Assembly (NCBI GenBank): GCA_035765775.1
Contig: DASTWV010000057.1
Span: 27,160-91,159 of the forward strand
Length of the DNA: 64,000 nt
From: Actinomycetota bacterium
Lineage (GTDB): Bacteria; Actinomycetota; CADDZG01; JAHWKV01; JAOPZY01
Direction of reading: 5' to 3'
Part shown: piece after piece, positions 49,156 to 64,000 of the stretch
How the letters are laid out: each line of letters starts with the position of its first letter
Numbering within the stretch: position 1 is the stretch's first letter
The notes under the pieces: model-generated
What the model was told of the DNA's origin: nothing
The model's database searches: none
What the model saw: the letters and a program-made list of their open reading frames with translations, nothing else
Program-made: the position numbers and the translations under genes

Positions 49156-51804
49156 CTACTCCTTGGTGAAGAACTCCAGCTCACTGATGGCCACGGAGGT
49201 GCCACCGCTGGACGACGGGTAGACCGACTCGATGGTGATCGTCACCCCCCGGATGCCATGGCCGTGCTCCAGGGTCAGGAGCTGGGCGTCGGGCTGGTTC
49301 TTGAGCGTCAGGGTGTCCGACTGCCCGTTGCTGTAGCTGATGAGCACCGACTTCGGCCGCGGCTCGGCGACAAAGGTGGCGCCAATGCCGCTGAACACGT
49401 TCACCCGGTCCAGGTTGACCGGTTGCTGGGACGTGGAGGAAAAGAGGATGAACATCGAGACCCCCACCCCGAGCTTGGGGCTCGCCTGCGCCTGCCACCA
49501 GGTGTTGGTGTGACCGTCGATGGCCTGCGCCGCCAGGTGCGTGGGCACTGAGGAGGTCGACGAGGCGTTCAACGGCGTCACCAGGTTGTAGTGCGGCGAC
49601 ACCTTCTTGCGGATGCTGGAGGTGACGCTCTTCACCTTGTTCTCGACTGTCTTGCGGTACGGCCCGGCGGCGGCCACGATCCCGGCGACCACCGCCAGGG
49701 CGATTATGATCTTGATCACCTTGCCCACTGCCGAGGGCTTGGGGGCTGTCCGGCTCCCGTGGCCCTGGGCCGGCCGTTCGCCGGCGGCGAGCACCGCCTT
49801 CTTCCGCCCGAAGATGCGCTTCCACCAGGAGACCTTGGGTGTCGGGGCCACGACCGCCGCCTCCAGCGAGGTGCCACAGCGCCGGCAGAACCTGCGGTTG
49901 GGCGTATTGCCCTCACCGCACTGGCCGCAGATGAGGTCGCCCGGAGCGTAGGTGCGGGCCGGTGGCGGCGCCTCCGCAGGGGCGGGCCGGGCTTTGGCGG
50001 CCGCGGGCTTCACCGCCTCGGGCTGGGACACCTGGGGCTTCACCGCCGCGGGGGCCTGGGGCGGCATCGGTCCCCCGTACGGCGAGGGCGACGCGGCGTA
50101 GGGAGGCGCCGGTGCGCCGGGGGCCGGGGCTGGCGTGTCGGCTCGTGACGCGGCCGCGGGGGCCTGCGTCGCCGGAGCCGGTTCCCAGAGGGAACGCTGC
50201 GGCGGCGGAGGGCCCGGTGGTGCGGGAGGAGGTGGAGCTCCCCACAGAGGAGGTCCCGCGGGCGCGGCAGGCGGCGCGGGCGGGCCTGCTGCCGGTGCCG
50301 GGGTGGGTCGGGGGCCGGCCGGCGATGCCCCGGGCGGTGGTGGTGGGGGCGCCTTGGCCACGAGTGCCGCTGCTCGGCGGGCAGCCTCCTGGGCCTTGGC
50401 CGCCTGCTCGGCGGCGAGGCGGGCCTCCTCCTGCGCCCGGCGGGCCTCCTCTTCCGCCTGGGCCTTGGCGGCGGCCTCCGCTTCCGCGCGTCGGGCCTGC
50501 GCCTCCGCTTCCCGGCGGGCGGCCTCATGAGCCTGGGCGGCAGCTGCAGCCCGAGCCTCCTCCTCGAGCCGGGCGGCCTGCTCAGCCTGGCGCGCCTGTT
50601 CCGCCTCGGCAGCCTCCTCGGCCGGCGTTGGGGGTGGCGTGCCGTCCGGTCCAGCCGCCAGGCCAGCCCCGGGCGCCGAGCCGGCGTCGCCGGGCGACGG
50701 GGGCGACCCAAACGACGTGGCGGGCGCAGGCGGCGAGAGAGGCGCAGCAGGCGATACGGCGGGCTCCGACGGCGCCGGCCCAGCAGGCGGGCGGGTCCCC
50801 AGGACGCTCTGCATCCGTGGACGACGTGCCCTGCCGGTTTCCGGCGCCGGGGCGCCCGTCGATGCCGGGGCGTCAGCCGCTGCGGTCGACAGAGATTCGG
50901 CTTCGGCGCCTACCGGTCCTTCCGGACCGGCGGGTGCAGGGGCGTCGTCCGCCAAGGACCGGCGCCCGGGGCGAGCCGGCCCCAACGGAGCGTCGCTCAG
51001 GCTGTAGCGGCCGGACGCGAGCGGTTCTGCCCATGGTTCCACCCGGGCCCGGGCAGGCTCTCCCGCCGGCCCAGGCGGCTCCGCACTCGGCCCAGGAGGC
51101 GCTGCTCCCACCGGTCCGGGTGGCCGTTCGGCGGTCTTCTCACCCCGCGGGCCCGGTCTCGGCCCACCGGTCCCGGCCGCCTCGGCCGGGGGCTCCGGTG
51201 CCACGTCCGGACCCGGTTTCGGTCCCGGCTTGGACGCTTCCTCCGAGCGGGCCGCAGCCGCAGCCGCCTCAGCAGCCGCCTGCATTTGGGCCTGGGCGGC
51301 GTCGGCAGCTTGGGTGGCGTCGGCAGCTTGGGCGGCCTGCCGTCTCGCAGCTTCCTCGGCCTCAGCGGCGGCGTGGCGCCGGGCGGCTTCCTCAGCCTCG
51401 GCCCGTTGGTGCTCCTGCTCGGCGGCCACCCGGGCGGCCTCGGCCGCAGCCCGCCGGGCCTGCTCCTCGGCGGCGGCACGGCGGGCGGCTTCCTCGGCGG
51501 CTCGGCGGGCGGCCTCCTCGGCCTCCGCTGCCCGGCGGCGGGCTTCCTCGGCAGCTCGCTGGGCGGCGAGGCGCTGGCGCTCCTCCTCCCGTTGCCGGAG
51601 CTCGGTGGCCAGGTCGGGCGGCGGGGGGGGCGGGGTCAGCGGAGCCGGCGCCGGGGTGGGTGAAGGCACCGGAGCGGCCTCCGGGGGGAACGCCGGGGCG
51701 GCGGGTGCCTCGCGCTCCCCGGTGAATTCCAGGAAGGAGCCGCAGGAACCGCAGAACTCGTCGCCGTCCTCGTTGCGGTTCCCGCACTGCTTACAGATGA
51801 TCAA
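49156..51804 (-). CDS. Double zinc-ribbon / coiled-coil / single-TM / discoidin (F5/8 type C)-like domain protein embedded in the CIS operon
   Basis: The likely TTG start overlaps the gpI stop, and a GAGGTGG RBS lies 7 nt upstream. The N-terminal zinc ribbon is IICKQCGNRNEDGDEFCGSCGSF. About 500 aa of Ala/Glu/Arg-rich coiled-coil (RRAAEAEEAARRAAEEAARR...) alternate with Pro-rich segments. A second zinc ribbon is LICGQCGEGNTPNRRFCRRCGTS. One TM helix (VIKIIIALAVVAGIVAAAG) follows. The C-terminal ~170 aa, AIDGHTNTWWQAQ....GGTSVAISELEFF, resembles the F5_F8_type_C/NPCBM carbohydrate-binding fold. The upstream ~115 codons of track ORF 49156..52149 are a non-coding extension. Confidence 0.7.
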   Translation of the reverse strand: MIICKQCGNRNEDGDEFCGSCGSFLEFTGEREAPAAPAFPPEAAPVPSPTPAPAPLTPPPPPPDLATELRQREEERQRLAAQRAAEEARRRAAEAEEAARRAAEEAARRAAAEEQARRAAAEAARVAAEQEHQRAEAEEAARRHAAAEAEEAARRQAAQAADATQAADAAQAQMQAAAEAAAAAARSEEASKPGPKPGPDVAPEPPAEAAGTGGPRPGPRGEKTAERPPGPVGAAPPGPSAEPPGPAGEPARARVEPWAEPLASGRYSLSDAPLGPARPGRRSLADDAPAPAGPEGPVGAEAESLSTAAADAPASTGAPAPETGRARRPRMQSVLGTRPPAGPAPSEPAVSPAAPLSPPAPATSFGSPPSPGDAGSAPGAGLAAGPDGTPPPTPAEEAAEAEQARQAEQAARLEEEARAAAAAQAHEAARREAEAQARRAEAEAAAKAQAEEEARRAQEEARLAAEQAAKAQEAARRAAALVAKAPPPPPPGASPAGPRPTPAPAAGPPAPPAAPAGPPLWGAPPPPAPPGPPPPQRSLWEPAPATQAPAAASRADTPAPAPGAPAPPYAASPSPYGGPMPPQAPAAVKPQVSQPEAVKPAAAKARPAPAEAPPPARTYAPGDLICGQCGEGNTPNRRFCRRCGTSLEAAVVAPTPKVSWWKRIFGRKKAVLAAGERPAQGHGSRTAPKPSAVGKVIKIIIALAVVAGIVAAAGPYRKTVENKVKSVTSSIRKKVSPHYNLVTPLNASSTSSVPTHLAAQAIDGHTNTWWQAQASPKLGVGVSMFILFSSTSQQPVNLDRVNVFSGIGATFVAEPRPKSVLISYSNGQSDTLTLKNQPDAQLLTLEHGHGIRGVTITIESVYPSSSGGTSVAISELEFFTKE

Positions 51805-52340
51805 CCGGTGACCACCTCGATCTGGTGGGGGATGTGGGCGGGCTTTCCCGAGGAAACTACCGCTTCGAGCCGTTGGCGATCCACAACTCCTGCATCGGCC
51901 ACCCGAACCCGCACCTTGAGGGACGGCTCGGCGGTGCCCGGGAGATCGCCGTTGGGCACCGGCGACCACGCGGCGGCCCCGCTCTCCTCCACCTCGACGT
52001 CGCCCCCGAAGACAAGGCGCACTAGCCCGACCAACCCCCGCACCGTCCCCCGCTGCGCGTAGAGCGCGGACGCCTCGCCCACCAGCGCCCGCCGCCGCTC
52101 CAGCGACCAGGTCTCGTCCAGCACCACCCCCACCCAGCCGGCCAACCATTCCAAAAAGTCCGGGGGAGCGACGGCGGGGCTCAGGTAGGCGTCGAGGTTG
52201 TCGAGGGCCAGGAACACCGGCGCCAGCACCTCATCCAGCCCGGCGGTGATGCGCTGGGTGAAGCTGTCCTCGTAGTAGATCGGCGGCAGCAGGAACCCCA
52301 GCGGCTGGGGGCTGGCCATACCCCGGACGGCGCCCCTCAT
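51801..52340 (-). CDS. Baseplate protein, P2 gpI-like (Afp12/Pvc12 position)
   Basis: LLPPIYYED...DAYLSPAVAPPDFLEWLAGWVGVVLDETWSLERRRALVGEASALYAQRGT matches the Tail_P2_I family signature (LLPP....LLPWLA....W....R.....HR.KGT). The ATG overlaps the gpJ stop (ATGA). Confidence 0.75.
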   Translation of the reverse strand: MRGAVRGMASPQPLGFLLPPIYYEDSFTQRITAGLDEVLAPVFLALDNLDAYLSPAVAPPDFLEWLAGWVGVVLDETWSLERRRALVGEASALYAQRGTVRGLVGLVRLVFGGDVEVEESGAAAWSPVPNGDLPGTAEPSLKVRVRVADAGVVDRQRLEAVVSSGKPAHIPHQIEVVTG

Positions 52341-54728: not shown

Positions 54729-56597
54729 TCAGTTGATCTTGACGATGGCGCCCTGGACCTGGACCATGGCGCCGCCTTTGAGCTCGGCAGTGGCGTTGGC
54801 GTTGATGCTGATCGTGGCGCCCTGCACCGTGACCTGGGCGGTTCCGTTCGCCTTCAGCTGCACCCCCTTGATCTCGACGTTGCCGCCGCCGCCGTCGATC
54901 GACACCCCGCTGTCGGCCTTGATGCTCACCTGGCGGCCCTTGAGGTCCAGGTTGCCCGCTGCGGTGATCTTGATGTCGCCCGGGGCCCCCTTGCACTCGA
55001 TCTCGATGGTCCCGTCGGCATTGATGGTCAGCTTCTGGTTGTTCTTCGACAGCTTCACGATGTACTTGCTGTCGCCGGTCTGCAGCAGGATCCCGTCGTC
55101 GGTCCCCTCCTTCTCGGTGAAGGAGAGGCGGTGGTGGGTGCGGCTGAAGAAGTCCCGGCGCTGGACCTTGCCCGAGGCATCGTCGATGGTCGGCACCGAG
55201 CCGGTCGGCGGCTTGTCGACGCCGTTGTAGAGCCCGGCCAGCACGTACGGCCGGCGGCTGTCGCCCTGCTCGAAGGCCACCAGCACCTCGTCGCCCACCT
55301 CGGGCACCAGCACGGCCCCGTACCCGTTGCCCGCCGAGATCTGGGCGACCCGCGCCCAGTCGCTTTCGTAGGTATCGTCCAGCCAGGGGAACTTCAGCTT
55401 GACCCGGCACTGGTTCTCCGGGTCCTTGGCATTGGTCACGATCGCCTGCACCACCCCGGGGATGGGTTTCCGGGACGCGGAACCGCTGCCCTTGCCCGCT
55501 GCCCCGCCGGAAGCGAGGCCCAGCAGCGTCGAGTTCTGCTTGCCGCTCACGGTGAAAAAGGTGGTGTAGCCGCCGTCGGGGTCATAGTGGTGGCGGGCGG
55601 AGGTCAGGCGGTACTTACCGTCGAACGGCTTGCCCACCTGCCCGAGGCTGACGGCCGCCCCCGCCTTCAGGTCGGTGTTGCCCAGGGCCACGCCGTCGAA
55701 GGTGGCGGAGGCGCTGCCGATGTCCTCGGCCCGGGCCGCGGCGGCGGCCTCGCACTCGGCCTGCGTGGCGAACGGGATGCTGGCGGCGAGGTGCGTCGGC
55801 GAGCCGAATTTGCCGCCCAGGTCCGCCGGGGTGACATCGAGATGGCTGGCGGAGCTCTTCGCCGGCGACGTCCCCACTATCTCCCGCTTCTGCTTGGGGT
55901 CCCAGCTCCGGACCTTGACCTCCGTGACCTGCTCGGCGGCGGAGACCGCGCAGCGGAAGCTCAGCAGGTTCTCCCCCAGGGTGAGCTGCAACGGGTTGGT
56001 GGAGGCAAGCGTGCCGGGGCCCGGAGCGCCCGACGCCGACTGCGGCTTGCGGAAGTCGAGCTTGCCCTTGGTGACCATCAGCTCGTAGCCCACCTCGGCC
56101 GACAGCCCACCGAGGAAGTCCCAGTCCGAGCAGTTGAACTGCGTGATCACGTCGTGCACGACCGATGTCGAGTCGACGGTCCCCAGCGACAGTCCATTGC
56201 GCTGGGCCACCTTGCCCGCCACGTCCGAGTAGCTCATGTTCTTGTAGGCCGCGGTGGTCCGCCCCCGGAACAAGCGGTGGGACGTGTCGAGTCCGCGGAC
56301 CACCGAGAGCGTCCCCAGCGGGTCGTGCTCGGCCTCCAGGGCCGTGATCTCGGCGTCCTCGATCAGGACCGTTCCCGAGGGGCTGGCATCCGACACCACC
56401 TTGATGGTCACCTTGCCGCCGATCTGGATCCCGGACGAGGCCGCAAACACCACCCGGCCAGGGTCCCGGAAGGTGAGCACGAAGGCGTCCGGGAGGTTGA
56501 GGCTGGTCTCCACGTAGGCGGACACCAGCAGCTCCTCGAGCGACGCGCTGAGCGGGGAGCCTGCGAGGCTCACCGACAGCGAGTGGGTGGGGTTCAT
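54729..56597 (-). CDS. VgrG/gpD-gp5-like central spike protein
   Basis: 622 aa from an internal ATG overlapping the upstream stop (ATGA). An N-terminal Phage_GPD-like region and a middle OB/gp5-like region (GVVQAIVTNAKDPENQCRVKLKFPWLDDTYESDWARVAQISAGNGYGAVLVPEVGDEVLVAFEQGDSRRPYVLAGLYNG) are present. The C-terminus is a beta-helix of repeats (KLTINADGTIEIECKG...DIKITAAGNLDLKGRQVSIKADSGVSIDGGGGNVEIKG...). Confidence 0.85.
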   Translation of the reverse strand: MNPTHSLSVSLAGSPLSASLEELLVSAYVETSLNLPDAFVLTFRDPGRVVFAASSGIQIGGKVTIKVVSDASPSGTVLIEDAEITALEAEHDPLGTLSVVRGLDTSHRLFRGRTTAAYKNMSYSDVAGKVAQRNGLSLGTVDSTSVVHDVITQFNCSDWDFLGGLSAEVGYELMVTKGKLDFRKPQSASGAPGPGTLASTNPLQLTLGENLLSFRCAVSAAEQVTEVKVRSWDPKQKREIVGTSPAKSSASHLDVTPADLGGKFGSPTHLAASIPFATQAECEAAAAARAEDIGSASATFDGVALGNTDLKAGAAVSLGQVGKPFDGKYRLTSARHHYDPDGGYTTFFTVSGKQNSTLLGLASGGAAGKGSGSASRKPIPGVVQAIVTNAKDPENQCRVKLKFPWLDDTYESDWARVAQISAGNGYGAVLVPEVGDEVLVAFEQGDSRRPYVLAGLYNGVDKPPTGSVPTIDDASGKVQRRDFFSRTHHRLSFTEKEGTDDGILLQTGDSKYIVKLSKNNQKLTINADGTIEIECKGAPGDIKITAAGNLDLKGRQVSIKADSGVSIDGGGGNVEIKGVQLKANGTAQVTVQGATISINANATAELKGGAMVQVQGAIVKIN

Positions 56598-57310
56598 GCC
56601 GGCCCCGCTGCCGAGGAGATCGAGGGGATGAGCAGGTGGCGACCGGCGGCCACCCGGAGCGGGTCGTCGATCCCATTGGCCTCGGCCAGCGCCCGCCACA
56701 GCGTCGGGTCGCCGTACTCCTGGTAGGCGATGCCAGCCAGCGTGTCCCCCTCGAGGAACTGGCGGGTCGCCATCGCCGCCAGAGCCCCCGAGGTGGGGTT
56801 CTGCTTGCCCTGCTTGGTCGGCAGCTCGTGCAGGGTGAGGGAGCACACCGCCCGGATCGGCTTGCCGTTGGGGTGGAACAGCGTGTAGCGGGCGCTGACC
56901 TGCTGGATGTAGCCCACGAAGTACACCTTGTCCCAGCCGAAGCGCACCGCAGGGGGCACCGGCCGGTCCTTGCCCTGCGAGGCGGACGTCGGCGTGCAGG
57001 CATCGATGAGCTTCTGCACGTCCTTGGAGACGTCCCCGTCGGACTCCTCCGAGGCGTCGAGGAACATCTCCAGGCTCATGTGCGACGGGTTGGGCCCCAT
57101 GTACTGCGCCGGCCCGGCGTTGCTGCTGCCGGCGACGTTGGTGGTCTGCCAGTTGGCGCTCTTGGCGATGGAGAACTCCTGGGGGTTGAACTGGAAGTGG
57201 ATGGTGCCCGTGGTCGAGCCGGCGCTCACCTCGCCGGTCGAGGAGCTCTTGATCTCGGCCAGCTCCAGGTAGGCCATGGTGAAGCCCGAGGGCGGGGGTC
57301 CTATGGGCAT
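56594..57310 (-). CDS. LysM-domain baseplate hub / tube-initiator-like protein (Afp7/Pvc7 position)
   Basis: The C-terminal LysM domain reads GDTLAGIAYQEYGDPTLWRALAEANGIDDPLRVAAGRHLLIPS. The N-terminal ~180 aa is beta-rich and tube-like. Position between the tube and spike genes. Confidence 0.7.
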   Translation of the reverse strand: MPIGPPPSGFTMAYLELAEIKSSSTGEVSAGSTTGTIHFQFNPQEFSIAKSANWQTTNVAGSSNAGPAQYMGPNPSHMSLEMFLDASEESDGDVSKDVQKLIDACTPTSASQGKDRPVPPAVRFGWDKVYFVGYIQQVSARYTLFHPNGKPIRAVCSLTLHELPTKQGKQNPTSGALAAMATRQFLEGDTLAGIAYQEYGDPTLWRALAEANGIDDPLRVAAGRHLLIPSISSAAGPA

Positions 57311-57313
57311 GGC

Positions 57314-57754
57314 CTACGCCGCCTCGAGGGTGAAGCCGTTGTGGGCGATCTCGAGCGATTCCTCCGCCACCTTGGGCGACTCCGCCGAGAACGAGGGCCC
57401 GCTCCACTTCACCGGGATGACCCCGGTCAGGTGCCAGGTCACCAGGCGGTTGCCCTGCGGGGTGAGCGCCACGATCTCGGCCGAGGTGCGCTTGACCCCC
57501 TTCGCCAGCCCGGCCAGCCAGGAGGCCACCTTGATGCTCTCCGGGCCGATCGGGCGGGTGAAGCGCACGTTGGAGAAGGTGATGCGCACCGGCAGCTTCC
57601 AGACGTAGCCGTTGTTGCCCCCCTCGACCCGCTCCTCGGTGACGACGTCCATCGACAGCCCGTCGCAGGTGGTGAACTCGCCCAGGTCCACGCCGTCGAT
57701 GCGCACGTGGAAGTAGAGGGCGACTGCTGGGTCGGTGTCGGTGGCGCCGGGCAC
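57314..57754 (-). CDS. Tail tube protein (T4 gp19 / Afp1-5 family)
   Basis: 146 aa. ALYFHVRIDGVDLGEFTTCDGLSMDVVTEE....VWKLPVRITFSNVRFTRP is characteristic of the Phage_T4_gp19 tube family. Confidence 0.85.
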   Translation of the reverse strand: MPGATDTDPAVALYFHVRIDGVDLGEFTTCDGLSMDVVTEERVEGGNNGYVWKLPVRITFSNVRFTRPIGPESIKVASWLAGLAKGVKRTSAEIVALTPQGNRLVTWHLTGVIPVKWSGPSFSAESPKVAEESLEIAHNGFTLEAA

Positions 57755-57770: not shown

Positions 57771-60700
57771 TCAGGTGAGGTCGGTCAGGAGTCCCGCCCG
57801 CTCCCGGTCGTGCCAGAGCTCCCGGCGCAGGTAGGGCCGGAGGCGGGGGTAGAGGCGGCGGGCGAGCTCATCGATGTCGTCGGGCAGGGCTTTGTTCGGC
57901 TCCACCGGGGCCGTCTCGGGGCCGGCGGTGGCCGCAGATGCCGCCGGGCTGGTTGCCGGTGAACGTGGGGCCGGGGAGGTTCTGGGCGGGCTGGCCATGG
58001 GGGACGGGGTGCCGGTGGCGGTTTCTGTCGGCGCTCGCTGCACCATGCGGAACACCTGCTCCGCCGTGGGGCGGGTGGGAGCAGGAGATAGCCGCAGGAT
58101 GGGGGCGGGAAGCGGGGAGCGGGACACCAGGGCATCCATGGAAGCCCTACCCCCCGGCGCCGACCGGGGCTGGGACGACGGGGCGGCCGGCGTTGCCGGG
58201 GCGGCCGGCGTTGCCGGGGCGGCCGGGCCGTGGCCGGGGAGAGATCGTTGCAGGGCGCGGACCCCGAGGAGCGGAGTCGGTGCCTCGGGCAGCCTGGGGG
58301 CCGCCCACGGGGTGGCGGTCGGCATCGGGAGGGCCGGCAGGTCGGCGCCGGTGGGGTCTGGGTGCGCGGGGCCCGGAGGCGGCGAATTGGGCAGAACCCC
58401 GGTGGCGTCGGCCTCACCTCGCCCCCGGAGGGCGGTGGCGATCGGGCGCTCGGGGAGCGGGGCGGTATGGCCGGCCGGGACCCGGTGCGCGGGGCCCGGA
58501 GGCGAACTGGACAACAAAAGCCGTGAGTTCTGAGGGTAATGGTGCGCGGAAACCTCGGGGCTGGGCGCGACGCCGGCGCTGGGCAGCGCCGTGGCGATCG
58601 GGCGCTCGGGCAGCGGGGCGATGTGCTCGACCGGGGATGGGGACCGCTCTGGGAGCGCCGGAAGGTTGACCAAGTGGGATTCGGTGGGTGAATGGGGCAA
58701 CAAGACCGGTGGATGCTGCGCGTGACGCTGCGCGGAAACCTCAGGACGGGCCGGCGTTGCGGCAGCGCCTTCGTCCGTTGGGCGGGGCAAGGCGGTGGCG
58801 ATGGGACGCTCCGCCAGCGATGAGATCTCCCAGCTGCGTGGCGCCGAAGGTTCGGCGAATGTGCCCGGCAGCCGAGAAGCACCCTCCTTGCTCAGTTCGA
58901 GCCCAGTCCCGGGCAGCTCGGCCGGCACGGGGGGGCTTTGGTGCTGGGAGTCTGCGGGCAGCGCGGTGGCGATCGGGCGCTCCGTGAGCGGCGCAACCCC
59001 GGTGGCCGGGACGGCCTGCGCCGGGTCCGTCTGCGCCGCGTCGGTCTGCGCCGGGAGGGCGGCCGCCGGCCCCCCGGGGACAACCGGGAGCGTCGGCTCC
59101 GGGATTCTGTGTACACCGGGGTGCTCCATATGGCGCTGCGTGTACACAGAATCCGGGGTTGGCGACAATCGCTGGGCGGTTCGCTCGGGAGCTGCGCCCC
59201 GGGCGGTCAGCGGCGGGGCAGGCGGCGACGCGGACGGGACACTCTCGGGCAGCCGGGCGGGGACGACCGCCCCGCGCATCGCCCCGGCGGGGTTTCCGGC
59301 GCCCTCGCTGAGCGGCGGAGCAGCCTCGGGCAACGAGGTCGAGATCGGTCGGTCGGCCAGCGGCGGTGCGGCGGGTGAGCTGACCGATGGATCGGGGCCT
59401 TCCGTGATCCGCTGCGGTGCCGGTTCCGGGGTCTGCGACGAGAGAGGTGCCGGCGGCCACGATGTAATGGGCACATCCTCCGGGATCCGGACGGCGGGTG
59501 CCTCGCCACGCTCCGCTGGAACGGTGCCGGCGCTCCCATCCGGCGGCAGGGGCGGTGCCACCTCGGGCAGCGCGGTCTCGATCGGTCGTTCGGCCAGGGG
59601 GGGTGTGACCAGCGCTCTGGTGGCCGCCGAAGAAGGAGCGTCGACGAGCTGCTGCACCGGCGCCTCCGGCTTGGACGCGAGGTCCGCCGGAGGAGCACCG
59701 GCCTTGCCCGGCAACGGTGCCCCCAGCCCGAGGCCCAGCTGGCGGATGGTCCGTCGCTTCACGGCCACCGGAGCGGTCCGGGCCACAGCCGCTGCTCCGG
59801 GTGCCACGACGGGCGAAGAGGGCGATGCCGGACCCGGTGCGGCCGGGGAGCGCGGCGGGGCTATAGGCGGACCCGAAGGATCCGAGGGCCCCGGCAACGG
59901 CGAGGCAATCGGCGGAGCCGCCGAGGCAGGGCTGCCCGCGGCGGCAGGGCCAGACGGAACGGCGGGGGGAGCCGAGCGGACCACCGGGGCCGCCGGGAGA
60001 CGCTGGATCGGTGGCCCGGACGGGACGGGAGTGACCGGTCCGCCGTTCCGGGATGCGGCCGGCCGGGGGGCCGCGGCCGGAGGCACCGGCCGGGGCGGAA
60101 GCTGGTCGGGTGGCGACACCAGGTCCGCCGGCCCCTCGGCGGCGGGGGGCAACGTCTCGGCTCCTAGCGTCGGCGCCTCCATCGGCCGTCCTTGGGGTGC
60201 CATGGAGGGAACGGGCGGTTCGGCGACCGGTTCGACGGGCAGCCCAGCGACTGTCTGCGCCACCGGCCCCGCAGGGTCTGCAGAGGGAACACCGACCGGG
60301 GCAACGCGGGGCAAAGGGATGGTCGCGGCAGGGGCTGCCACCGACCGCGAGACGGACGGCATCTCCACCGCCGGGAGCTCCCGGGGCACCAGGCCTTTCG
60401 GGGCTGCCTGGAGGAGCGGCCGGATCGGCTTGGAAACTGGGACCGCGGGACTGGCCCCCCTCGGGGCCGCGCCGGCGGAGTCCCGCCCGCTGAGCTGGCC
60501 CGGATCCGGAACCGGGTCGATCTCCCGGGCCGGCGCGCCCGCCGACTGCTGCTGCACCTGAGGCTCCGCCCCGGTCTCGACTAGCGACCCCGGCACCACC
60601 GCATCCGATCCCAGCACCACAACCGGCCCCGGCACCGGCACCGGCGCCCCAACTGCCGGGGGAACGGGGGCAGCGGGCTCGCTCCACCGGATCGCCGGGG

Positions 60701-61148
60701 GGTCGGCCGCCCGGAACACGGTCCGCCAGGTCCGCTCCCGCCCAGGCCCTCCGGCCCGCCGCCGGGGAGCACGGGGAGCACGTTGGGCACGGGGAGCACG
60801 GGGGGCAAGGGGCGGGGAAGCTACCTGACGCTGCACGGGTGCCGGGGCCACCACAGAGGTCAGCCCGCTCACCAGGCCTGCCGGCGCTTCCTCCGACACC
60901 CCGTGCGCCAGCGGCGCCAGGAAGGGGTAGGGCGCCGTCTGGGCGGCAAGGCCGTCCTTGAAACTCTGGACCCCCACCACGGTGGGCATCGCACCGAGGA
61001 CCGGCTCGAACCCGCGGGCGGCCCGCCACTCCCCGGCCTCGGGGCGCGCAGAGGCGGGCGGCGTCACCGGCGGGGCGACGGGAACCGACTCAGGCCGCGC
61101 ACCCTGACCGGCACCGCGGCCAGCCCGGGCACCGAAACCGCCCCGCAC
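57771..61148 (-). CDS. Pro/Ala-rich tandem-repeat protein in tape-measure position (putative length determinant)
   Basis: 1125 aa with high GC3 throughout. There are at least 7 divergent ~55-60-aa repeats sharing the core P-L-(A/T)-(E/D)-R-P-I-(A/S/E)-T-(A/S)-L-P. The core is conserved at amino-acid level despite nucleotide divergence. The distinct charged C-terminus is DIDELARRLYPRLRPYLRRELWHDRERAGLLTDLT. The gene is tightly packed between the two tube genes (7-nt and 16-nt gaps). Confidence 0.6.
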   Translation of the reverse strand: MRGGFGARAGRGAGQGARPESVPVAPPVTPPASARPEAGEWRAARGFEPVLGAMPTVVGVQSFKDGLAAQTAPYPFLAPLAHGVSEEAPAGLVSGLTSVVAPAPVQRQVASPPLAPRAPRAQRAPRAPRRRAGGPGRERTWRTVFRAADPPAIRWSEPAAPVPPAVGAPVPVPGPVVVLGSDAVVPGSLVETGAEPQVQQQSAGAPAREIDPVPDPGQLSGRDSAGAAPRGASPAVPVSKPIRPLLQAAPKGLVPRELPAVEMPSVSRSVAAPAATIPLPRVAPVGVPSADPAGPVAQTVAGLPVEPVAEPPVPSMAPQGRPMEAPTLGAETLPPAAEGPADLVSPPDQLPPRPVPPAAAPRPAASRNGGPVTPVPSGPPIQRLPAAPVVRSAPPAVPSGPAAAGSPASAAPPIASPLPGPSDPSGPPIAPPRSPAAPGPASPSSPVVAPGAAAVARTAPVAVKRRTIRQLGLGLGAPLPGKAGAPPADLASKPEAPVQQLVDAPSSAATRALVTPPLAERPIETALPEVAPPLPPDGSAGTVPAERGEAPAVRIPEDVPITSWPPAPLSSQTPEPAPQRITEGPDPSVSSPAAPPLADRPISTSLPEAAPPLSEGAGNPAGAMRGAVVPARLPESVPSASPPAPPLTARGAAPERTAQRLSPTPDSVYTQRHMEHPGVHRIPEPTLPVVPGGPAAALPAQTDAAQTDPAQAVPATGVAPLTERPIATALPADSQHQSPPVPAELPGTGLELSKEGASRLPGTFAEPSAPRSWEISSLAERPIATALPRPTDEGAAATPARPEVSAQRHAQHPPVLLPHSPTESHLVNLPALPERSPSPVEHIAPLPERPIATALPSAGVAPSPEVSAHHYPQNSRLLLSSSPPGPAHRVPAGHTAPLPERPIATALRGRGEADATGVLPNSPPPGPAHPDPTGADLPALPMPTATPWAAPRLPEAPTPLLGVRALQRSLPGHGPAAPATPAAPATPAAPSSQPRSAPGGRASMDALVSRSPLPAPILRLSPAPTRPTAEQVFRMVQRAPTETATGTPSPMASPPRTSPAPRSPATSPAASAATAGPETAPVEPNKALPDDIDELARRLYPRLRPYLRRELWHDRERAGLLTDLT
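58430..59620. repeat. Tandem array of degenerate ~165-190-bp repeats (coding; inside the Pro-rich ORF)
   Basis: Recurring core GGCGGTGGCGATCGGGCGCTC(G/C)G(G/C)GAGCGG and variants at ~58433, 58596, 58790, 58959, 59338 and 59571 on the plus strand. The reverse complement encodes ...ERPIATA.... Confidence 0.6.
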
Positions 61149-61154
61149 CGGGGC

Positions 61155-61313
61155 TCACCTACCCCGGTCCTGTTCCTCGTTCAGCCGTCCGATCTCCTTC
61201 ACGAAGCGCTGCCGGACGGGATGCTCGAGGTCCAGGATGTCGTCGAGGCTCCAGTGGAAGTGGTAGGCGACGTACGCGACCTCCCGGTAGAGCCGGTCTG
61301 GCGCGTACGTCAC
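61155..61313 (-). CDS. Small ORF (52 aa) in -1 frame overlapping the preceding gene's stop
   Basis: The GTG start overlaps the TGA of ORF 61310..61783 (tcGTGAcg). It encodes VTYAPDRLYREVAYVAYHFHWSLDDILDLEHPVRQRFVKEIGRLNEEQDRGR, which is protein-like and has high GC3, and it ends 7 nt before the Pro-rich gene. It may be an independent small protein or a -1 frameshift extension. Confidence 0.3.
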   Translation of the reverse strand: MTYAPDRLYREVAYVAYHFHWSLDDILDLEHPVRQRFVKEIGRLNEEQDRGR

Positions 61314-61783
61314 GATTCCCCCAGGCGACCACCGGCCACATCGACCGAGAAGTTGTGCTCGCAGGCCGGGCAGGTCACCGCGGCCCGGGTGTGGCCCTCT
61401 TCGTTGATCCGCCGGTAGAGGTCCTGGAGGAACGCCACGTCGGAGGCGAACATGTTCTCCAGCACCCCACCGTGGATGTCCTCCACCGTCCCCAGCCGGG
61501 TGATCACCCGGGCCAGCAGCACGATGGTCAGGTAGGCAGGGTTCTCCTTGACCCGGTCGTCGTGCAGCGGCAAGAGCTCGTCCCGGGCGGTCGCCAGGCG
61601 CATGGCGCCGTTGCGGTGCACCGTGCCCGACCGGTCGACATAGCCCCGGGGGAGCACGAAATCGAACTCGGTCTGGAGCTTGCGCGGCTCCTCCGCGCGC
61701 CCCGCCCCGCGCCCGGAACCCTCGGAGGGCGCGTCGTCCTCGCTCCTGCCCGCCTCCAGGACGGGCGCCAGTCCCCGGCGCAT
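61310..61783 (-). CDS. Hypothetical CIS-associated protein (possible tape-measure/tail assembly chaperone)
   Basis: <=157 aa. Protein-like segments include EFDFVLPRGYVDRSGTVHRNGAMRLATARDELLPLHDDRVKENPAYLTIVLLARVITRLGTVEDIHGGVLENMFASDVAFLQDLYRRINEEGH, plus CxxC (TCPACEH). The start overlaps the tube gene stop by 1 nt, although the true start may lie further downstream. Confidence 0.45.
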   Translation of the reverse strand: MRRGLAPVLEAGRSEDDAPSEGSGRGAGRAEEPRKLQTEFDFVLPRGYVDRSGTVHRNGAMRLATARDELLPLHDDRVKENPAYLTIVLLARVITRLGTVEDIHGGVLENMFASDVAFLQDLYRRINEEGHTRAAVTCPACEHNFSVDVAGGRLGES

Positions 61784-62226
61784 CAGGCGGGTGCGCAGCC
61801 TTCGTGGGCGATCGTGAGCTTCTCGGTGAGGATGCTGGTGTCACCGGCTTTCAACGTCCCCACCTCCAGCACCTTGGGCCAGCAGTTGGTCAGCTTGTAG
61901 CGCATGATCTCGGCACCCTGGTAGTCGTAGACAATCACCGAGCCGCCCTTCCGGGAGACGGGCATGTTGCCCTGGTGAGCGTCCTTGACCCAGTCCTGGA
62001 AGGTCTTGTCCGACGTCAGGCCCCGGGTGATGCTGATCTCGCCGATCTTCGGCCGGCCGGGGAGCTGCTTGTTGACGTACTTGCCGTCTTTGGTGTTGGC
62101 CTTGAGCTCGATGACGTCCTGCTCCATCTTCACGCCCGACAGCTCCTGGATCTGCTTGATCTGGATGCCGTCGAATTCGAACCCGAACGACCAGCCAACA
62201 CTCGCATCCTCATCGGGCAGGGCCAT
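61783..62226 (-). CDS. Tail tube protein (T4 gp19 / Afp1-family), second paralogue
   Basis: 147 aa. WSFGFEFDGIQIKQIQELSGVKMEQDVIELK....YKLTNCWPKVLEVGTLKAGDTSILTEKLTIAHEG fits the Phage_T4_gp19 family. Confidence 0.85.
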   Translation of the reverse strand: MALPDEDASVGWSFGFEFDGIQIKQIQELSGVKMEQDVIELKANTKDGKYVNKQLPGRPKIGEISITRGLTSDKTFQDWVKDAHQGNMPVSRKGGSVIVYDYQGAEIMRYKLTNCWPKVLEVGTLKAGDTSILTEKLTIAHEGCAPA

Positions 62227-62274: not shown

Positions 62275-63804
62275 TTATTCGGTCAGCGATGCTCCGCCGG
62301 AGAACTGCGAGAGCCGGAAGACCACGAACTCAGCGGGCTTAACCGGGGCAACGCCGATCTCGCAGATCACCATCCCGGCGTCGATCGACTCCGCCGGGTT
62401 GGTCTCGTCGTCGCACTTCACGTAGTACGCCTGGTCGGGGTTCAGACCGAACAGGGCGCCCTTGCGCCACTCGTTCACCAGGAAGGTGGCGATGGTGCGG
62501 CGCATCTTGGCCCACAGCGCATAGTCGTTCGGCTCGAAAACGGCCCACTGGGTGCCGCCCAGGATGGACTCCTCCAGGTAGTTGAACAGCCGCCGGATGT
62601 TGAGGTACCGCCACGCCGGGTCGCTGGACAGGGTGCGGGCGCCCCACACCCGCGTGCCCCGGCCGGGGAAGTTGCGGATGCAGTTGATGCCGTGGGGGTT
62701 CAGGAGGTCGTGCTCGCTCTTGGTGATGTTCAACTCCAGGGTGATCGCCCCCCGGACCACCTCGTTGGCAGGTGCCTTGTGCACGCCCCGGGTGTCGTCG
62801 TTGCGCCCCCAGATGCCCGCCATGTGCCCGCTGGGCGGGACGAAGATGTTCTGCCCCGAGGCGGGGTCGAAGACCTTGATCCACGGCCAGTACAGGGCGG
62901 CGTACTTGGAGTCGTAGCCCGCCTTGTCCACCCGCCACTCCCGGATCTGCTGGGCGTTCAGCCCGGGCGGGGAGTCGAGGATGGCCACCCGGTCGCCCAT
63001 CAACTCGCAGTGGGCGATCATCGCCAGCTGGACCGCCTTCAGCCCCTCCTGGTCGATCATGCCCTTCTGGTAGGCGGCCATGAGGTCGGGCACGCACACC
63101 ATCGTGATCGGGTCGATGGCCTCCAGGCCCCCGAAGCCGGTCCGGTCCGACGCGTCGCCTACGTAGTCGTCCGGCGCCAGGCGGGCCGGGGCGGGCGGGC
63201 TGCCCCCGCCGGTCAGGCTCACGGTGGACTTGACGGGCTTGTCGAGCGCGGCGCCCGGCGTGGCCTCCTCGATGCGGATCACTTTGGAGACGGCGTTCAC
63301 CATGGCCACCACGTTCTGGCGACCCTTCTTGGTGCTGGCCTTGTCGAACTCCTCGACCTGTTGGCCGTCGCGGCGGATGATGAGCTTGAACTGGTCCTCG
63401 GTGGCGCCCTCCCCGGGGTCGGCCACCTCGACCGAGATGTTGTTGCCCGCCGCCCCCGGCTCCAGCGCCCGGATGACGTAGCCGCCCAGCCGGGCGTCGG
63501 CCCCGCTGGCCAACTCGCCCCGCGGCCCGGAGCCGTTGCCGTCGCCGCCCACCCGGACGACGTAGCACGCTCCCCCGCCGTTGAGGAAGTACCCGTACAC
63601 CGCGTGGGCGAGGTAGGTGCCCTCGACGAACTCGCCGAAGGTGTTCGTGAACTGGCCCCAGTTGGTGCAGAGCGTCGGCTCGTTCAAGGGGCCCTGGGCA
63701 GCAAGGCCGACGAACGCGGCCACCGCCGTCCCCACGCCTTCGATCGGCCGGGATCCGGAGTCCACCTCCTCGACATAGACGCCGGGGGACAGGTACTGGG
63801 GCAT
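62275..63804 (-). CDS. Contractile tail sheath protein
   Basis: 509 aa. The N-terminal MPQYLSPGVYVEEVDSG is the canonical sheath start. A C-terminal conserved sheath domain follows (WPWIKVFDP...GINCIRNFPGRGTRVWGARTL). A strong GAGGAGGAGG RBS lies upstream. Confidence 0.9.
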   Translation of the reverse strand: MPQYLSPGVYVEEVDSGSRPIEGVGTAVAAFVGLAAQGPLNEPTLCTNWGQFTNTFGEFVEGTYLAHAVYGYFLNGGGACYVVRVGGDGNGSGPRGELASGADARLGGYVIRALEPGAAGNNISVEVADPGEGATEDQFKLIIRRDGQQVEEFDKASTKKGRQNVVAMVNAVSKVIRIEEATPGAALDKPVKSTVSLTGGGSPPAPARLAPDDYVGDASDRTGFGGLEAIDPITMVCVPDLMAAYQKGMIDQEGLKAVQLAMIAHCELMGDRVAILDSPPGLNAQQIREWRVDKAGYDSKYAALYWPWIKVFDPASGQNIFVPPSGHMAGIWGRNDDTRGVHKAPANEVVRGAITLELNITKSEHDLLNPHGINCIRNFPGRGTRVWGARTLSSDPAWRYLNIRRLFNYLEESILGGTQWAVFEPNDYALWAKMRRTIATFLVNEWRKGALFGLNPDQAYYVKCDDETNPAESIDAGMVICEIGVAPVKPAEFVVFRLSQFSGGASLTE

Positions 63805-63945: not shown

Positions 63946-64000
63946 CTACTCGCTGCCCTCTTTCTCTTCCTCTTCTTCCTCCTGGCGCTGCACGGGAGCG
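63946..64000 (-). CDS. 3' end of an upstream gene with poly-Glu C-terminus (partial)
   Basis: The minus-strand frame ends ...APVQRQEEEEEEKEGSE* at ~63946 and continues beyond the window end. It is 140 bp upstream of the sheath gene across a hairpin-containing spacer. Confidence 0.25.
   Translation of the reverse strand, partial: APVQRQEEEEEEKEGSE

What the first reader, a model, noticed from the sequence alone, without database searches (positions are those of the whole stretch)
61155..61783. Two overlapping small ORFs upstream of the putative tape measure in a -1 frame relationship, as in phage gpG/gpGT chaperones
ORF 61310..61783 (<=157 aa) ends in TGA. A 52-aa ORF (VTYAPDRLYREVAYVAYHFHWSLDDILDLEHPVRQRFVKEIGRLNEEQDRGR) starts in the -1 frame with a GTG overlapping that stop (GTGA) and ends 7 nt before the Pro-rich gene. 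The -1 frame is also open across most of ORF1. In tailed phages the tail-assembly chaperone pair upstream of the tape measure is produced by a conserved -1 programmed frameshift, so this arrangement may be an analogous G/GT-like pair. The sequence at the ORF1 end (CTG GGG GAA TCG TGA) is not a canonical X XXY YYZ slippery heptamer, so coupled re-initiation at GTG is equally plausible. Such chaperone pairs have not generally been described for CIS loci.
Basis: inference. Interest (0 to 1): 0.55.

Follow-up and report, generated by a model that had tools for sequence, protein, structure and literature searches.

The report
Frameshifted tail-chaperone pair in injection-system locus
Two small overlapping genes between the tube gene and a large proline-rich gene of a bacterial phage-tail-like injection system are a phage-type tail assembly chaperone pair whose second part is almost certainly made by a programmed -1 ribosomal frameshift, a feature conserved in many such loci across phyla but not annotated or described for them.

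Summary
ORF1 (61310-61783, minus strand, 157 aa) and ORF2 (61155-61313, 52 aa, Pfam DUF6760) overlap by GTGA, with ORF2 in the -1 frame.

The G/GT-like reading is strongly supported, and coupled re-initiation is not equally plausible.
- The junction G_GGG_GAA is the "five-two" slippery motif of about a thousand actinobacteriophage chaperone frameshifts.
- It is invariant at synonymous sites in 81 of 81 actinobacterial loci.
- In 83 distant loci (GC 0.32-0.76) a G-run heptamer sits at the same position in 80 (plus one GGAAAAG).
- 69 of those 83 have no ATG/GTG/TTG for ORF2, and the frame-switch window can be as short as 13-19 nt.
- A hairpin 5-6 nt downstream shows clear covariation in the distant set.
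- Synteny is sheath, tube, ORF1, ORF2, then a large protein and/or second tube protein, then the LysM hub.

The predicted product is a 209-aa fusion. No experiment exists. The CIS papers I read call these genes unknown and say that no tape measure is present. This is a new member of a known kind.

The parts
61310..61783 (-). ORF1, 157 aa: G-like tail assembly chaperone. The variable N-terminal ~35 aa are followed by a conserved core (residues ~36-150) with an invariant CxxC.
61155..61313 (-). ORF2, 52 codons, -1 frame: T-like extension (DUF6760 domain). Predicted to be made only, or mainly, as the C-terminal part of the ORF1-ORF2 fusion.
   Evidence: Pfam DUF6760 E 1.6e-13, 51 bits against a cutoff of 27. 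GC3 0.89. -1 frame in 81/81 actinobacterial loci. AF2: three helices (5-19, 23-27, 32-51), pLDDT 77. Public annotation is a stand-alone 'DUF6760 family protein'.
61316..61322 (-). Slippery heptamer G_GGG_GAA (ORF1 codons Gly155, Glu156, preceded by the G of Leu154).
   Evidence: Position. Invariant in 81/81 loci, including synonymous sites. Same motif as the SEA-PHAGES 'five-two' chaperone frameshifts and corynephage phi16. Positional equivalents GGGGGAA/GGGGGAG/GGGGGGA/GGGGGGG in 80 of 83 distant loci.
61267..61313 (-). Candidate stimulatory hairpin. The 5' arm is GUGACGUACGCG (61313-61302) and the 3' arm is CGCGUACGUCGC (61278-61267). The 8-bp core CGUACGCG/CGCGUACG starts 6 nt after the heptamer.
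   Evidence: Present in the MFE and centroid folds. 90% of cells paired across 49 actinobacterial sequences, against 12-55% for slid controls, but almost no covariation, and RNAalifold does not select it. The analogous hairpin in non-actinobacterial loci is supported by covariation.
61155..61783 (-). Predicted transframe product (GT-like), 209 aa: ORF1 residues 1-156 (or 1-155 plus Gly), then Ile, then ORF2 read with Val at its first codon. The junction is ...GGRLGE|IVTYAPDR... for tandem slippage, or ...GGRLGG|IVTYAPDR... for P-site slippage.
   Evidence: Inference from the heptamer and frames. A metagenomic protein, P0137, reads ...GGRLGGIVTYAADRLY..., most likely a homopolymer error, which shows that the fused frame is readable.
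61783..62226 (-). Tube protein gene immediately upstream. Its TGA overlaps the ORF1 ATG.
   Evidence: Pfam Phage_T4_gp19 E 1.2e-30. Sequence.
62275..63804 (-). Sheath protein gene.
   Evidence: Pfam Phage_sheath_1 and Phage_sheath_1C.
57771..61148 (-). Pro/Ala-rich 1125-aa ORF immediately downstream of ORF2. It is the candidate client of the chaperones (a tape-measure-like or lumenal protein); its identity is unproven.
   Evidence: No Pfam, NCBIfam or PHROG hit. A 421-1290-aa Pro/Ala-rich ORF occupies this position in 66/66 actinobacterial loci. The C-terminal ~160 aa are conserved in 34 loci. GC3 0.81 is not decisive for the strand.
57314..57754 (-). Second tube-like protein (Cis5/Afp5-like tube initiator).
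   Evidence: Pfam Phage_T4_gp19 E 6e-29; NCBIfam CIS5_fam below its cutoff.
56594..57310 (-). LysM / CIS_tube hub protein (Afp7-like).
   Evidence: Pfam CIS_tube E 5e-26, LysM.

Best explanation
ORF1 and ORF2 are the tail assembly chaperone pair of a contractile injection system (CIS), the counterpart of phage lambda G/GT and P2 E/E+E'.

Most ribosomes translate ORF1 to its TGA and make a 157-aa G-like chaperone. A fraction slips back one base on G_GGG_GAA (61322-61316), two codons before the stop. In that slip tRNA-Gly re-pairs GGG to GGG, and tRNA-Glu re-pairs GAA to GGA using a G:U pair. A downstream hairpin probably helps. These ribosomes continue in the -1 frame through the 52 DUF6760 codons and produce a 209-aa GT-like fusion. 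The GTG that overlaps the stop is read as an internal valine; it is not needed as an initiator.

Inferred, not shown: by analogy with phage chaperones, the G and GT proteins coat a long protein of the tube lumen (here most likely the adjacent Pro/Ala-rich 1125-aa protein), and the T domain recruits tube subunits onto the baseplate and tube-initiator complex. Both chaperones would be displaced as the tube polymerises.

Shown here: the anatomy, the homology and fold of ORF1, conservation of the slippery site, absence of start codons in relatives, RNA covariation in relatives, and synteny. Inferred: the frameshift event itself and its efficiency, the stimulatory role of the hairpin, and the client and mode of action of the chaperones.
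For: 1. Anatomy: GTGA overlap, ORF2 in the -1 frame. The same arrangement occurs in 81/81 actinobacterial loci.

2. Nucleotide-level selection: codons CGC CTG GGG GAA have zero third-position entropy in 81 distinct loci. Other Arg/Leu/Gly codons in the same genes show about 1-1.7 bits, and Glu is GAG in 69-100% of loci at the other conserved Glu codons of ORF1.

3. GGGGGAA is the only sequence seen for the 'five-two' motif in about a thousand SEA-PHAGES chaperone frameshifts, and that paper discusses the same G:U re-pairing. It is also predicted for corynephage phi16.

4. In 83 distinct non-actinobacterial loci (GC 0.32-0.76) the heptamer sits at a fixed position 45 nt before the AYxAYHFH motif: GGGGGAA 37, GGGGGAG 16, GGGGGGA 14, GGGGGGG 13, GGAAAAG 1, with 2 exceptions. 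69/83 have no ATG/GTG/TTG in the -1 frame at the junction. In 14 loci the stretch between the upstream -1-frame stop and the ORF1 stop is 20 nt or less (minimum 13), and in the printed sequences it always contains the G run.

5. A hairpin 5-6 nt downstream in those loci: 90.1% of cells paired, 7/12 pairs with changes on both sides, 49 compensatory cells against 19.5 +/- 3.4 in shuffles (0/500 reach it), covariation score 0.205 against at most 0.132 for slid controls. RNAalifold finds the stem on its own. The Val codon in the 3' arm reads GTA in most loci and GTG in most of the rest, at GC up to 0.76 (column 54 is A in about 72 of 81 sequences and G in about 7).

7. Coding signal: the -1 frame is non-coding over ORF1 (GC3 0.48) and coding from the junction onward (GC3 0.89).

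8. Synteny: sheath > tube > ORF1 > ORF2 > (large protein) > tube2 > LysM hub, in actinobacterial and distant loci. This is the position of the chaperone genes in P2-like myoviruses (established knowledge).

9. The ORF1 proteins listed by the homologue search are 138-165 aa; no fused ORF appears among the top 120.
Against: - There is no experimental evidence: no transframe peptide, reporter assay or ribosome profiling.
- In this window and in 70 of 81 actinobacterial loci a usable GTG or ATG overlaps the ORF1 stop, with a G-rich stretch just upstream. Some coupled initiation of a free 52-aa product cannot be excluded here.
- The hairpin of the window's own lineage shows no covariation and is weakened in Streptomyces loci (15 of 49 break the pair 23-61). 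Its fold energy is not unusual for the composition (z -0.87).
- The presumed client has no similarity to known tape measure proteins and is predicted to be Pro-rich rather than helical.
- Published work on Streptomyces CIS states that no tape measure gene is present.
- Loci were collected through ORF1 similarity and are phylogenetically related, so counts of loci are not independent events.
Confidence: 0.8

Rival explanations
1. Two separate proteins. ORF2 is translated on its own by translational coupling or re-initiation at the GTG that overlaps the ORF1 stop, with the G-run acting as a Shine-Dalgarno-like element. No fusion is made.
For: A GTGA overlap is the commonest coupling arrangement in bacterial operons (established knowledge). 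The tube gene and ORF1 are also coupled, by a TGATG overlap. 66 of 81 actinobacterial loci have GTG and 4 have ATG at this position. GGGGG resembles GGAGG. Public pipelines annotate a stand-alone 52-aa DUF6760 protein.
Against: - 11 of 81 actinobacterial loci have CTG at this position.
- 69 of 83 distant loci have no ATG/GTG/TTG at all. The corresponding codon there is usually GTA, GTC, ATC or ATA, i.e. a conserved hydrophobic residue.
- The G-run lies only 3-4 nt from the putative start, which is too close for a good SD spacing.
- An SD would not need invariant flanking bases (CGCCT...AATC) or a fixed codon phase.
- -1-frame residues upstream of the 'start' (P-G-G-I) are kept across lineages.
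Confidence: 0.08
2. The frame change is made at the RNA level. RNA polymerase slips on the G run and adds one G to a fraction of transcripts, which are then translated conventionally into the fusion.
For: The shift site is always a homopolymeric G run of 5-7 bases. One extra G would give exactly the ...LGGIVTY... protein, as seen in P0137.
Against: - Known bacterial transcriptional slippage needs runs of about 7-9 or more A or T (established knowledge). Five G is short.
- One locus has GGAAAAG instead of a G run (L097).
- A covarying hairpin at the classical 5-6-nt spacing, and identity with a motif assigned to ribosomal frameshifting in actinophages, both fit the ribosomal mechanism better.
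Confidence: 0.05
3. The frameshift is real, but the proteins are not tape-measure chaperones. They could act in baseplate-hub assembly, as proposed for T4-like 'baseplate hub assembly' proteins, or as adaptors that load cargo into the tube. The Pro-rich protein would then be an effector rather than a ruler.
For: - The best matches among viral predicted structures are T4-like 'baseplate hub assembly protein' entries (E 2e-7 to 6e-5), with weak Pfam T4_baseplate hits.
- In non-actinobacterial loci ORF2 is followed directly by the second tube gene, and the variable protein comes after it.
- Large disordered proteins at this position in another Streptomyces CIS are described as tape-measure-related effectors.
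Against: - The gene order tube > pair > large protein in actinobacteria is the order of chaperone and tape measure genes in P2-like phages (established knowledge).
- Every locus has one large variable protein between the pair and the LysM hub.
- 1125 aa times the published eCIS slope of 0.2156-0.229 nm per residue gives 243-258 nm, close to the 268-nm S. coelicolor particle. This is a consistency check only.
Confidence: 0.15

Closest known systems
Phage lambda gpG/gpGT, and the conserved -1 frameshift in tail assembly chaperone genes of long-tailed phages, as annotated in actinobacteriophages
   Same: - Two overlapping ORFs between the tube (major tail) gene and a large downstream gene.
- The second ORF is in the -1 frame.
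- The slippery heptamer lies near the 3' end of the first ORF. The GGGGGAA motif is the same one used by about a thousand actinophage chaperones.
- ORF1 shares the fold of the HK97 chaperone.
   Different: - The locus is a chromosomal contractile injection system, not a phage.
- There is no detectable sequence similarity to any of 50,697 phage genomes at tblastn level.
- The T extension is short (about 53 aa) and is its own Pfam family, DUF6760.
- The shift site is only 2 codons from the ORF1 stop.
- The downstream 'client' is Pro/Ala-rich and unlike known tape measures.
P2 gpE/gpE+E' and Mu gp41/gp42 (myovirus and R-type tailocin chaperones)
   Same: - Contractile-tail context with the order sheath, tube, chaperone pair, large protein.
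- The extension is about 50 aa.
- There are weak Pfam hits to Phage_TAC_7 and Gp41_Mu.
   Different: - The Pfam hits are below the curated cutoffs.
- ORF1 is larger and carries a C-terminal CxxC beta-hairpin.
- The slippery sequence is G-rich. My memory that P2 uses a T-rich heptamer was not checked here.
B. subtilis YqbN/XkdN (PBSX/skin-element phage-like particle), PDB 3klu
   Different: Only 8% identity. I did not test whether a frameshift is used there. My recollection that yqbN lies between the tube-like and tape-measure-like genes was not checked.
Lineage II 'subtype-specific genes of unknown function' in eCIS catalogues, and sco4251 in the S. coelicolor CIS cluster
   Same: - Probably the same genes. 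Lineage II eCIS carry conserved genes in which no known functional domain could be identified, and they lack afp14.
- sco4251 is the third gene of the sheath operon and is of unknown function.
   Different: - These papers assign no function and mention no frameshift. They state that a tape measure is absent.
- The mapping sco4251 = ORF1 and sco4250 = ORF2 is my inference from gene order, not a sequence comparison.

Membership tests
G/GT-type tail assembly chaperone pair with programmed -1 frameshift | Two overlapping ORFs located between the tube (major tail) gene and the next large tail gene. | tested here: met
   The window order is sheath, tube, ORF1, ORF2, 1125-aa ORF. The same order occurs across actinobacterial and distant loci.
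G/GT-type tail assembly chaperone pair with programmed -1 frameshift | The second ORF is in the -1 frame and lacks its own initiation signals. | tested here: inconclusive
   The -1 frame holds in 81/81 actinobacterial loci and in all distant loci. No start codon in 69/83 distant loci. The window itself has a GTG, so this is met for the family but not decisive for this locus.
G/GT-type tail assembly chaperone pair with programmed -1 frameshift | A slippery heptamer in the ORF1 frame near its 3' end. | tested here: met
   G_GGG_GAA at 61316-61322. It matches the known actinophage motif, is invariant at synonymous sites, and has positional equivalents in 81/83 distant loci.
G/GT-type tail assembly chaperone pair with programmed -1 frameshift | A downstream stimulatory RNA structure. 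This is common in such cassettes but not obligatory. | tested here: inconclusive
   The window lineage has an 8-12-bp hairpin 6 nt downstream, 90% paired, without covariation. The distant lineages have a hairpin with strong covariation.
G/GT-type tail assembly chaperone pair with programmed -1 frameshift | The first ORF is homologous to known tail assembly chaperones. | tested here: met
G/GT-type tail assembly chaperone pair with programmed -1 frameshift | The fusion protein is actually produced, at a fixed low ratio to the short product. | not testable with these tools
   This needs proteomics or a reporter assay. Supplementary tables of the S. coelicolor papers list Sco4251 only at the protein level.
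G/GT-type tail assembly chaperone pair with programmed -1 frameshift | A tape measure protein is encoded next to the pair and is bound by the chaperones. | tested here: inconclusive
   A large ORF is always adjacent or close, but it has no tape-measure homology. Binding is not testable here.
Pfam DUF6760 (PF20546) | Score above the curated gathering threshold. | tested here: met
   ORF2 scores 51 bits against a cutoff of 27, E 1.6e-13, over profile positions 5-51 of 89.
Pfam Phage_TAC_7 (P2 gpE / Mu gp41 / gp14) and Gp41_Mu | Score above the curated gathering threshold. | tested here: not met
   The window ORF1 gives no hit. 7/34 and 4/34 family members hit at E of 1e-3 or weaker, below the 25-27-bit cutoffs.
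Contractile injection system (eCIS/CIS, Afp-like, lineage II) | Sheath, two tube-family proteins, LysM hub, VgrG-like spike, gp25 wedge and baseplate J in one cluster. | tested here: met
   Pfam hits to Phage_sheath_1, Phage_T4_gp19 (twice), CIS_tube with LysM, Phage_base_V, GPW_gp25, Baseplate_J and Tail_P2_I.
Contractile injection system (eCIS/CIS, Afp-like, lineage II) | A Pvc16_N tail terminator and an AAA+ ATPase, the features that distinguish eCIS from phage tails. | not tested
   I did not look for them systematically in the window. By analogy with S. coelicolor they would lie beyond the sheath gene, past the window end at 64000. A related distant locus, L093, has Pvc16_N.

The most novel reading that the evidence does not exclude
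Lineage II contractile injection systems, including the Streptomyces CIS that is reported to lack a tape measure, do use a phage-style ruler pathway. In this reading the frameshift-made G/GT pair chaperones the adjacent 700-1290-aa Pro/Ala-rich protein in actinobacteria, or the variable protein between the second tube gene and the LysM hub in other phyla. That protein is the missing length-determining lumenal protein, and it would be largely non-helical, unlike known tape measures. DUF6760 would then be a T domain that exists in cells only as part of a fusion.
Probability: 0.35. Interest if true: 0.75.

Novelty: new member of a known kind. Interest (0 to 1): 0.62.

Why it matters
- Annotation. 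A conserved recoding signal (slippery G run plus hairpin) sits in a very large family of CIS loci: more than 8000 ORF1 protein clusters at 90% identity. Annotation pipelines split it into a 'hypothetical protein' and a free-standing 'DUF6760 protein'. Where no start codon exists they may miss the second part altogether, which I did not check. The DUF6760 family can now be read as the T extension of a chaperone.

- Assembly mechanism. A chaperone pair implies a client. The literature on Streptomyces CIS notes uniform 268-nm particles yet states that no tape measure gene exists. The pair points directly at the neighbouring Pro/Ala-rich protein as a testable candidate for the ruler or lumenal protein.

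- Engineering. Work on re-engineering eCIS length and cargo depends on the tape measure. Heterologous expression of lineage II systems would fail, or give aberrant tubes, if the frameshift cassette is disrupted by codon optimisation.

- Evolution. It shows that the frameshift, one of the most conserved features of phage tail modules, was kept after domestication of tails into injection systems.

Tried and rejected
- My first script suggested that in L027 and L067 the ORF2 frame reads through into the Pro-rich protein. Recomputing from the junction gave ordinary 50-aa ORF2s, so that was an artefact and is not used.

- The 'natural fusions' in the exhaustive protein search (P0132, P0137, P0178, P0192, P0247) carry further frame errors. 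They look like sequencing or assembly frameshifts, so I did not count them as evidence. P0206 and P0264 are truncated in-frame fusions of unknown quality.

- Covariation for the actinobacterial hairpin was not supported (2 compensatory cells; 67 of 500 shuffles do as well). RNAalifold prefers a different, invariant pairing.

- Rfam gave no match at E up to 1 in 61000-61900.

- A PDB sequence search with the ORF1 profile gave only chance zinc-ribbon or Trm112 hits at E about 1.

- tblastn of the fusion against 50,697 phage genomes gave no match.

- Pfam, NCBIfam and PHROGs gave nothing for the Pro-rich protein.

- GC3 could not settle the coding strand of the Pro-rich region (0.81 against 0.80 for the opposite-strand ORF).

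- A broad 25-sequence alignment was too diverse for locus retrieval. A 5-sequence alignment worked.

- The heptamer count within the window is not above chance.
Full report
**1. What is in the sequence**

All the genes of interest lie on the minus strand of a high-GC window.

| Coordinates | Feature | Evidence |
|---|---|---|
| 62275-63804 | Sheath gene | Pfam Phage_sheath_1 and 1C |
| 61783-62226 | Tube gene | Phage_T4_gp19 |
| 61310-61783 | ORF1, 157 aa | |
| 61155-61313 | ORF2, 52 aa | |
| 57771-61148 | Pro/Ala-rich ORF, 1125 aa | |
| 57314-57754 | Second tube-family gene | |
| 56594-57310 | LysM/CIS_tube hub | |
| from 56591 down | Spike, gp25 wedge, baseplate J, P2-I-like protein | |

This is a contractile injection system (CIS) operon.

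ORF1 ends CTG GGG GAA TCG TGA. The ORF2 GTG overlaps that stop (GTGA), so ORF2 is in the -1 frame.

Two details need correcting:
- The gap to the Pro-rich GTG is 6 nt, not 7.
- The open -1 frame across ORF1 means nothing. Its GC by codon position (0.89/0.75/0.48) is non-coding, whereas ORF1 (GC3 0.92) and ORF2 (GC3 0.89) look like real genes.

**2. What the two ORFs are**

ORF2 is a full-threshold member of Pfam DUF6760 (E 1.6e-13). No paper in the searchable library mentions that family.

ORF1 has no Pfam or NCBIfam family, but it belongs to a very large and well conserved family. More than 8000 clusters were found, and the 120 best are 138-165 aa and all 'hypothetical'.

Evidence that ORF1 is a chaperone:
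- 31 of 34 diverse members match PHROG 508 'tail assembly chaperone', best E 3.8e-10; the window protein itself scores 1.1e-4.
- Some members give sub-threshold hits to Pfam Phage_TAC_7 (P2 gpE / Mu gp41) and Gp41_Mu.
- An AlphaFold model built with a 34-sequence alignment is confident in the core (pLDDT 96-98 over residues ~40-120, mean 82.7).
- Among predicted viral structures, the best matches are T4-like 'baseplate hub assembly' proteins (E 2e-7).

ORF2 is predicted as a small three-helix domain (pLDDT 77). No bona fide phage genome among 50,697 encodes a tblastn-detectable relative of either part. The family therefore appears specific to CIS loci and is only remotely related to phage chaperones.

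**3. Evidence from 80 actinobacterial loci**

A scan of species-representative genomes returned 80 loci from Streptomyces, Kribbella, Nocardioides, Cellulomonas, Pseudarthrobacter and others. ORF1 identity to the window is 60-78%.

- Including the window, 81 of 81 have ORF2 in the -1 frame with the same 4-nt overlap.
- The four ORF1 codons CGC CTG GGG GAA are identical in all 81 distinct sequences (third-position entropy 0).
- Other Arg, Leu and Gly codons of the same genes vary freely (about 1-1.7 bits), and Glu is GAG in 69-100% of loci at the other conserved Glu codons of ORF1.
- GGG and GAA are minority codons in these genomes, so this is selection on the nucleotides.
- The codon overlapping the stop is GTG in 66 loci, CTG in 11 and ATG in 4.

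**4. The heptamer is a known slippery sequence**

The PRFect paper reports that, in the manually curated actinobacteriophage (SEA-PHAGES) set, the 'five-two' motif was GGGGGAA in all of about a thousand tail-assembly-chaperone frameshifts. It explains this by G:U pairing of the Glu tRNA with GGA after the slip. The same heptamer was proposed for corynephage phi16. The window uses it in the same phase: (CT)G GGG GAA.

**5. Evidence from distant loci**

I used a small alignment of distant ORF1 homologues as the query. This retrieved 14 loci from viral-contig data and 80 from metagenomes, with GC from 0.32 to 0.76.

Synteny is the same: sheath(s), tube, ORF1, ORF2, second tube protein, a variable protein, LysM hub.

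Among 83 distinct junctions:
- The slippery position, exactly 45 nt before the conserved AYxAYHFH motif of ORF2, reads GGGGGAA (37), GGGGGAG (16), GGGGGGA (14), GGGGGGG (13) or GGAAAAG (1), with two exceptions.
- Those two exceptions have other candidates: C_CCG_GGG in L088 and A_AAT_TTT in L093.
- 69 of 83 have no ATG, GTG or TTG in the -1 frame anywhere in the junction zone. The codon that is GTG in the window is typically GTA, GTC, ATC or ATA, that is, an internal hydrophobic residue.
- In 14 loci the -1 frame is closed by a stop so close upstream that only 13-20 nt remain between that stop and the end of ORF1. In the printed sequences that stretch always contains the G run.

In those lineages ORF2 can only be reached by changing frame on the G run.

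**6. The downstream hairpin**

In the distant set, a hairpin starts 5-6 nt after the heptamer. It has an outer stem ((N)GCUACC pairing with GGUAGC(N)) and an inner stem of 4-5 pairs. Evidence:
- 90.1% of cells are paired.
- 7 of 12 pairs show changes on both sides.
- There are 49 compensatory cells against 19.5 +/- 3.4 in shuffles (0 of 500 reach the observed value).
- The covariation score is 0.205, against 0.039-0.132 when the partners are slid.
- RNAalifold predicts the outer stem independently.
- The outermost pair occurs as G-C, A-U, C-G and U-A. Its 5' base changes the amino acid (Gly/Ser/Arg/Cys), and its 3' base is the silent third position of an Ala codon.
- The Val codon in the 3' arm reads GTA in most loci and GTG in most of the rest, even at 0.7 GC (column 54 is A in about 72 of 81 sequences and G in about 7).

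The window's own lineage has a different hairpin at the same place. Its core is CGUACGCG/CGCGUACG, extendable to 12 bp (61313-61302 with 61278-61267). It is 90% paired across 49 sequences, but it lacks covariation and is weakened in Streptomyces. I call it a candidate only.

**7. Mechanism**

Most ribosomes terminate ORF1 at TGA and give the 157-aa G-like protein. A fraction slips -1 on G_GGG_GAA and reads ATC GTG ACG..., giving a 209-aa GT-like fusion. The junction is ...RLGE-IVTYAPDR... for tandem slippage, or ...RLGG-IVTY... for P-site slippage.

- Shown here: the anatomy, conservation of the slippery site, the start-less relatives, the covarying hairpin in relatives, the chaperone-like fold and the synteny.
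- Inferred: that the shift occurs, its efficiency, and the function.

By analogy with lambda G/GT (established knowledge; cited), the pair would coat a long lumenal protein and recruit tube subunits.

The candidate client in actinobacteria is the Pro/Ala-rich ORF:
- An ORF of 421-1290 aa (median about 980, about 17% Pro and 19% Ala) fills this position in 66 of 66 loci with enough flank.
- In other phyla, ORF2 abuts the second tube gene, and a variable protein follows it before the LysM hub (tube2-to-LysM gap 1.1-2.9 kb).
- The window protein has no detectable tape-measure homology.
- As a consistency check only: 1125 aa times the published eCIS slope of 0.2156-0.229 nm per residue gives 243-258 nm. 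The S. coelicolor particle is 268 nm.

**8. Rival explanations**

- Pure re-initiation at GTG cannot explain the start-less majority of relatives, the CTG variants or the invariant flanks. It may still add some free ORF2 in actinobacteria.
- Transcriptional slippage on five G is unlikely. It does not explain the hairpin at ribosomal spacing or the GGAAAAG variant.
- A non-chaperone role for a genuinely frameshifted pair remains open, for example hub assembly or cargo loading.

**9. Comparison with what is known, and novelty**

The -1 frameshift in tail chaperone genes is textbook for phages and P2-like tailocins.

For CIS I found no description:
- Two searches combining contractile injection systems with assembly chaperones, tape measure or frameshifting returned no title or abstract that describes such a pair in a CIS locus.
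- The Streptomyces CIS papers call sco4251 'unknown function' and say that a tape measure gene is absent or atypical.
- The eCIS catalogue notes lineage II-specific genes in which no known functional domain could be identified, and no afp14.
- A 2026 preprint on the AlgoCIS ruler mentions chaperones only for phages.
- Public annotation gives 'hypothetical protein' and 'DUF6760 family protein'.

I therefore rate it a new member of a known kind. The mechanism is ordinary. The family, its CIS context, its conserved cassette and its implication for CIS length control are new.

**10. Caveats**

- Everything here is computational.
- Loci are related to one another and were found through ORF1.
- The literature search covers open-access text only.
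- The mapping to sco4251/sco4250/sco4249 rests on gene order alone. One supplement draws sco4248 and sco4249 as divergent, which I could not resolve.

Noticed in passing
window 57771-61148 (-): The 1125-aa Pro/Ala-rich ORF contains about six copies of a motif like (L/P)xERPI(A/E/S)T(A/S)LP and has a conserved C-terminal ~160 aa. A comparable ORF (421-1290 aa) occupies the same position in 66/66 actinobacterial loci. Its length times the published eCIS ruler slope gives about 243-258 nm.
   Followed up: partly
window 58795-60561 (+), opposite the Pro-rich ORF: The reverse strand of the Pro-rich gene carries a 588-aa Gly/Ala-rich ORF with equal GC3 (0.80 against 0.81). A supplement of a S. coelicolor paper draws sco4248 and sco4249 as divergent genes, so the homologous region may be annotated on the wrong strand in that genome. 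I did not check this.
   Followed up: no
L095-L100 (metagenomic loci); protein P0121: Some non-actinobacterial loci carry two tandem ORF1 copies before ORF2. One 244-aa protein contains two ORF1 domains in a single chain.
   Followed up: no
L090:5001-5400, L092, L094: One low-GC lineage (GC 0.39) has an ORF1 homologue with no DUF6760 ORF in the ~1 kb available downstream. In L090 a short direct repeat (GGATAGGAATT) follows the stop. My queries also found no sheath or tube gene nearby.
   Followed up: no
window 61254-61331 (-), alignment A4 columns 9-14 with 72-77: In actinobacteria, RNAalifold pairs the slippery UGGGGG with CUUCCA of the His-Phe-His codons 58 nt downstream. The pairing is kept in 49/49 sequences but without covariation. 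It could be chance or a long-range element.
   Followed up: partly
window 61310-61783 (-), ORF1 residues ~133-148: ORF1 has an invariant CxxC in a C-terminal beta-hairpin, with nearby His residues. Many members give weak zinc-ribbon hits. Only two Cys are present, so metal binding is uncertain.
   Followed up: no
ORF1 model m232d01c955b6 against BFVD: ORF1 resembles about 120 residues of 260-270-aa T4-like 'baseplate hub assembly' proteins. Weak Pfam T4_baseplate alignments place the match at the C-terminal end of that family (E 2e-7 by Foldseek). This hints that these T4-type proteins and tail assembly chaperones belong to one superfamily.
   Followed up: partly
protein P0212 (76 aa): This metagenomic protein joins an ORF2-like sequence to the ORF1 C-terminus at a shared RINxEGH-like stretch. 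ORF2's C-terminus (EIGRLNEEQD) and ORF1 (YRRINEEGH) resemble each other there. It is probably an assembly chimera.
   Followed up: no
window 49156-52149 (-): A 997-aa protein with several zinc-ribbon motifs follows the baseplate genes, in the position where fibre or effector genes sit in other CIS loci.
   Followed up: no
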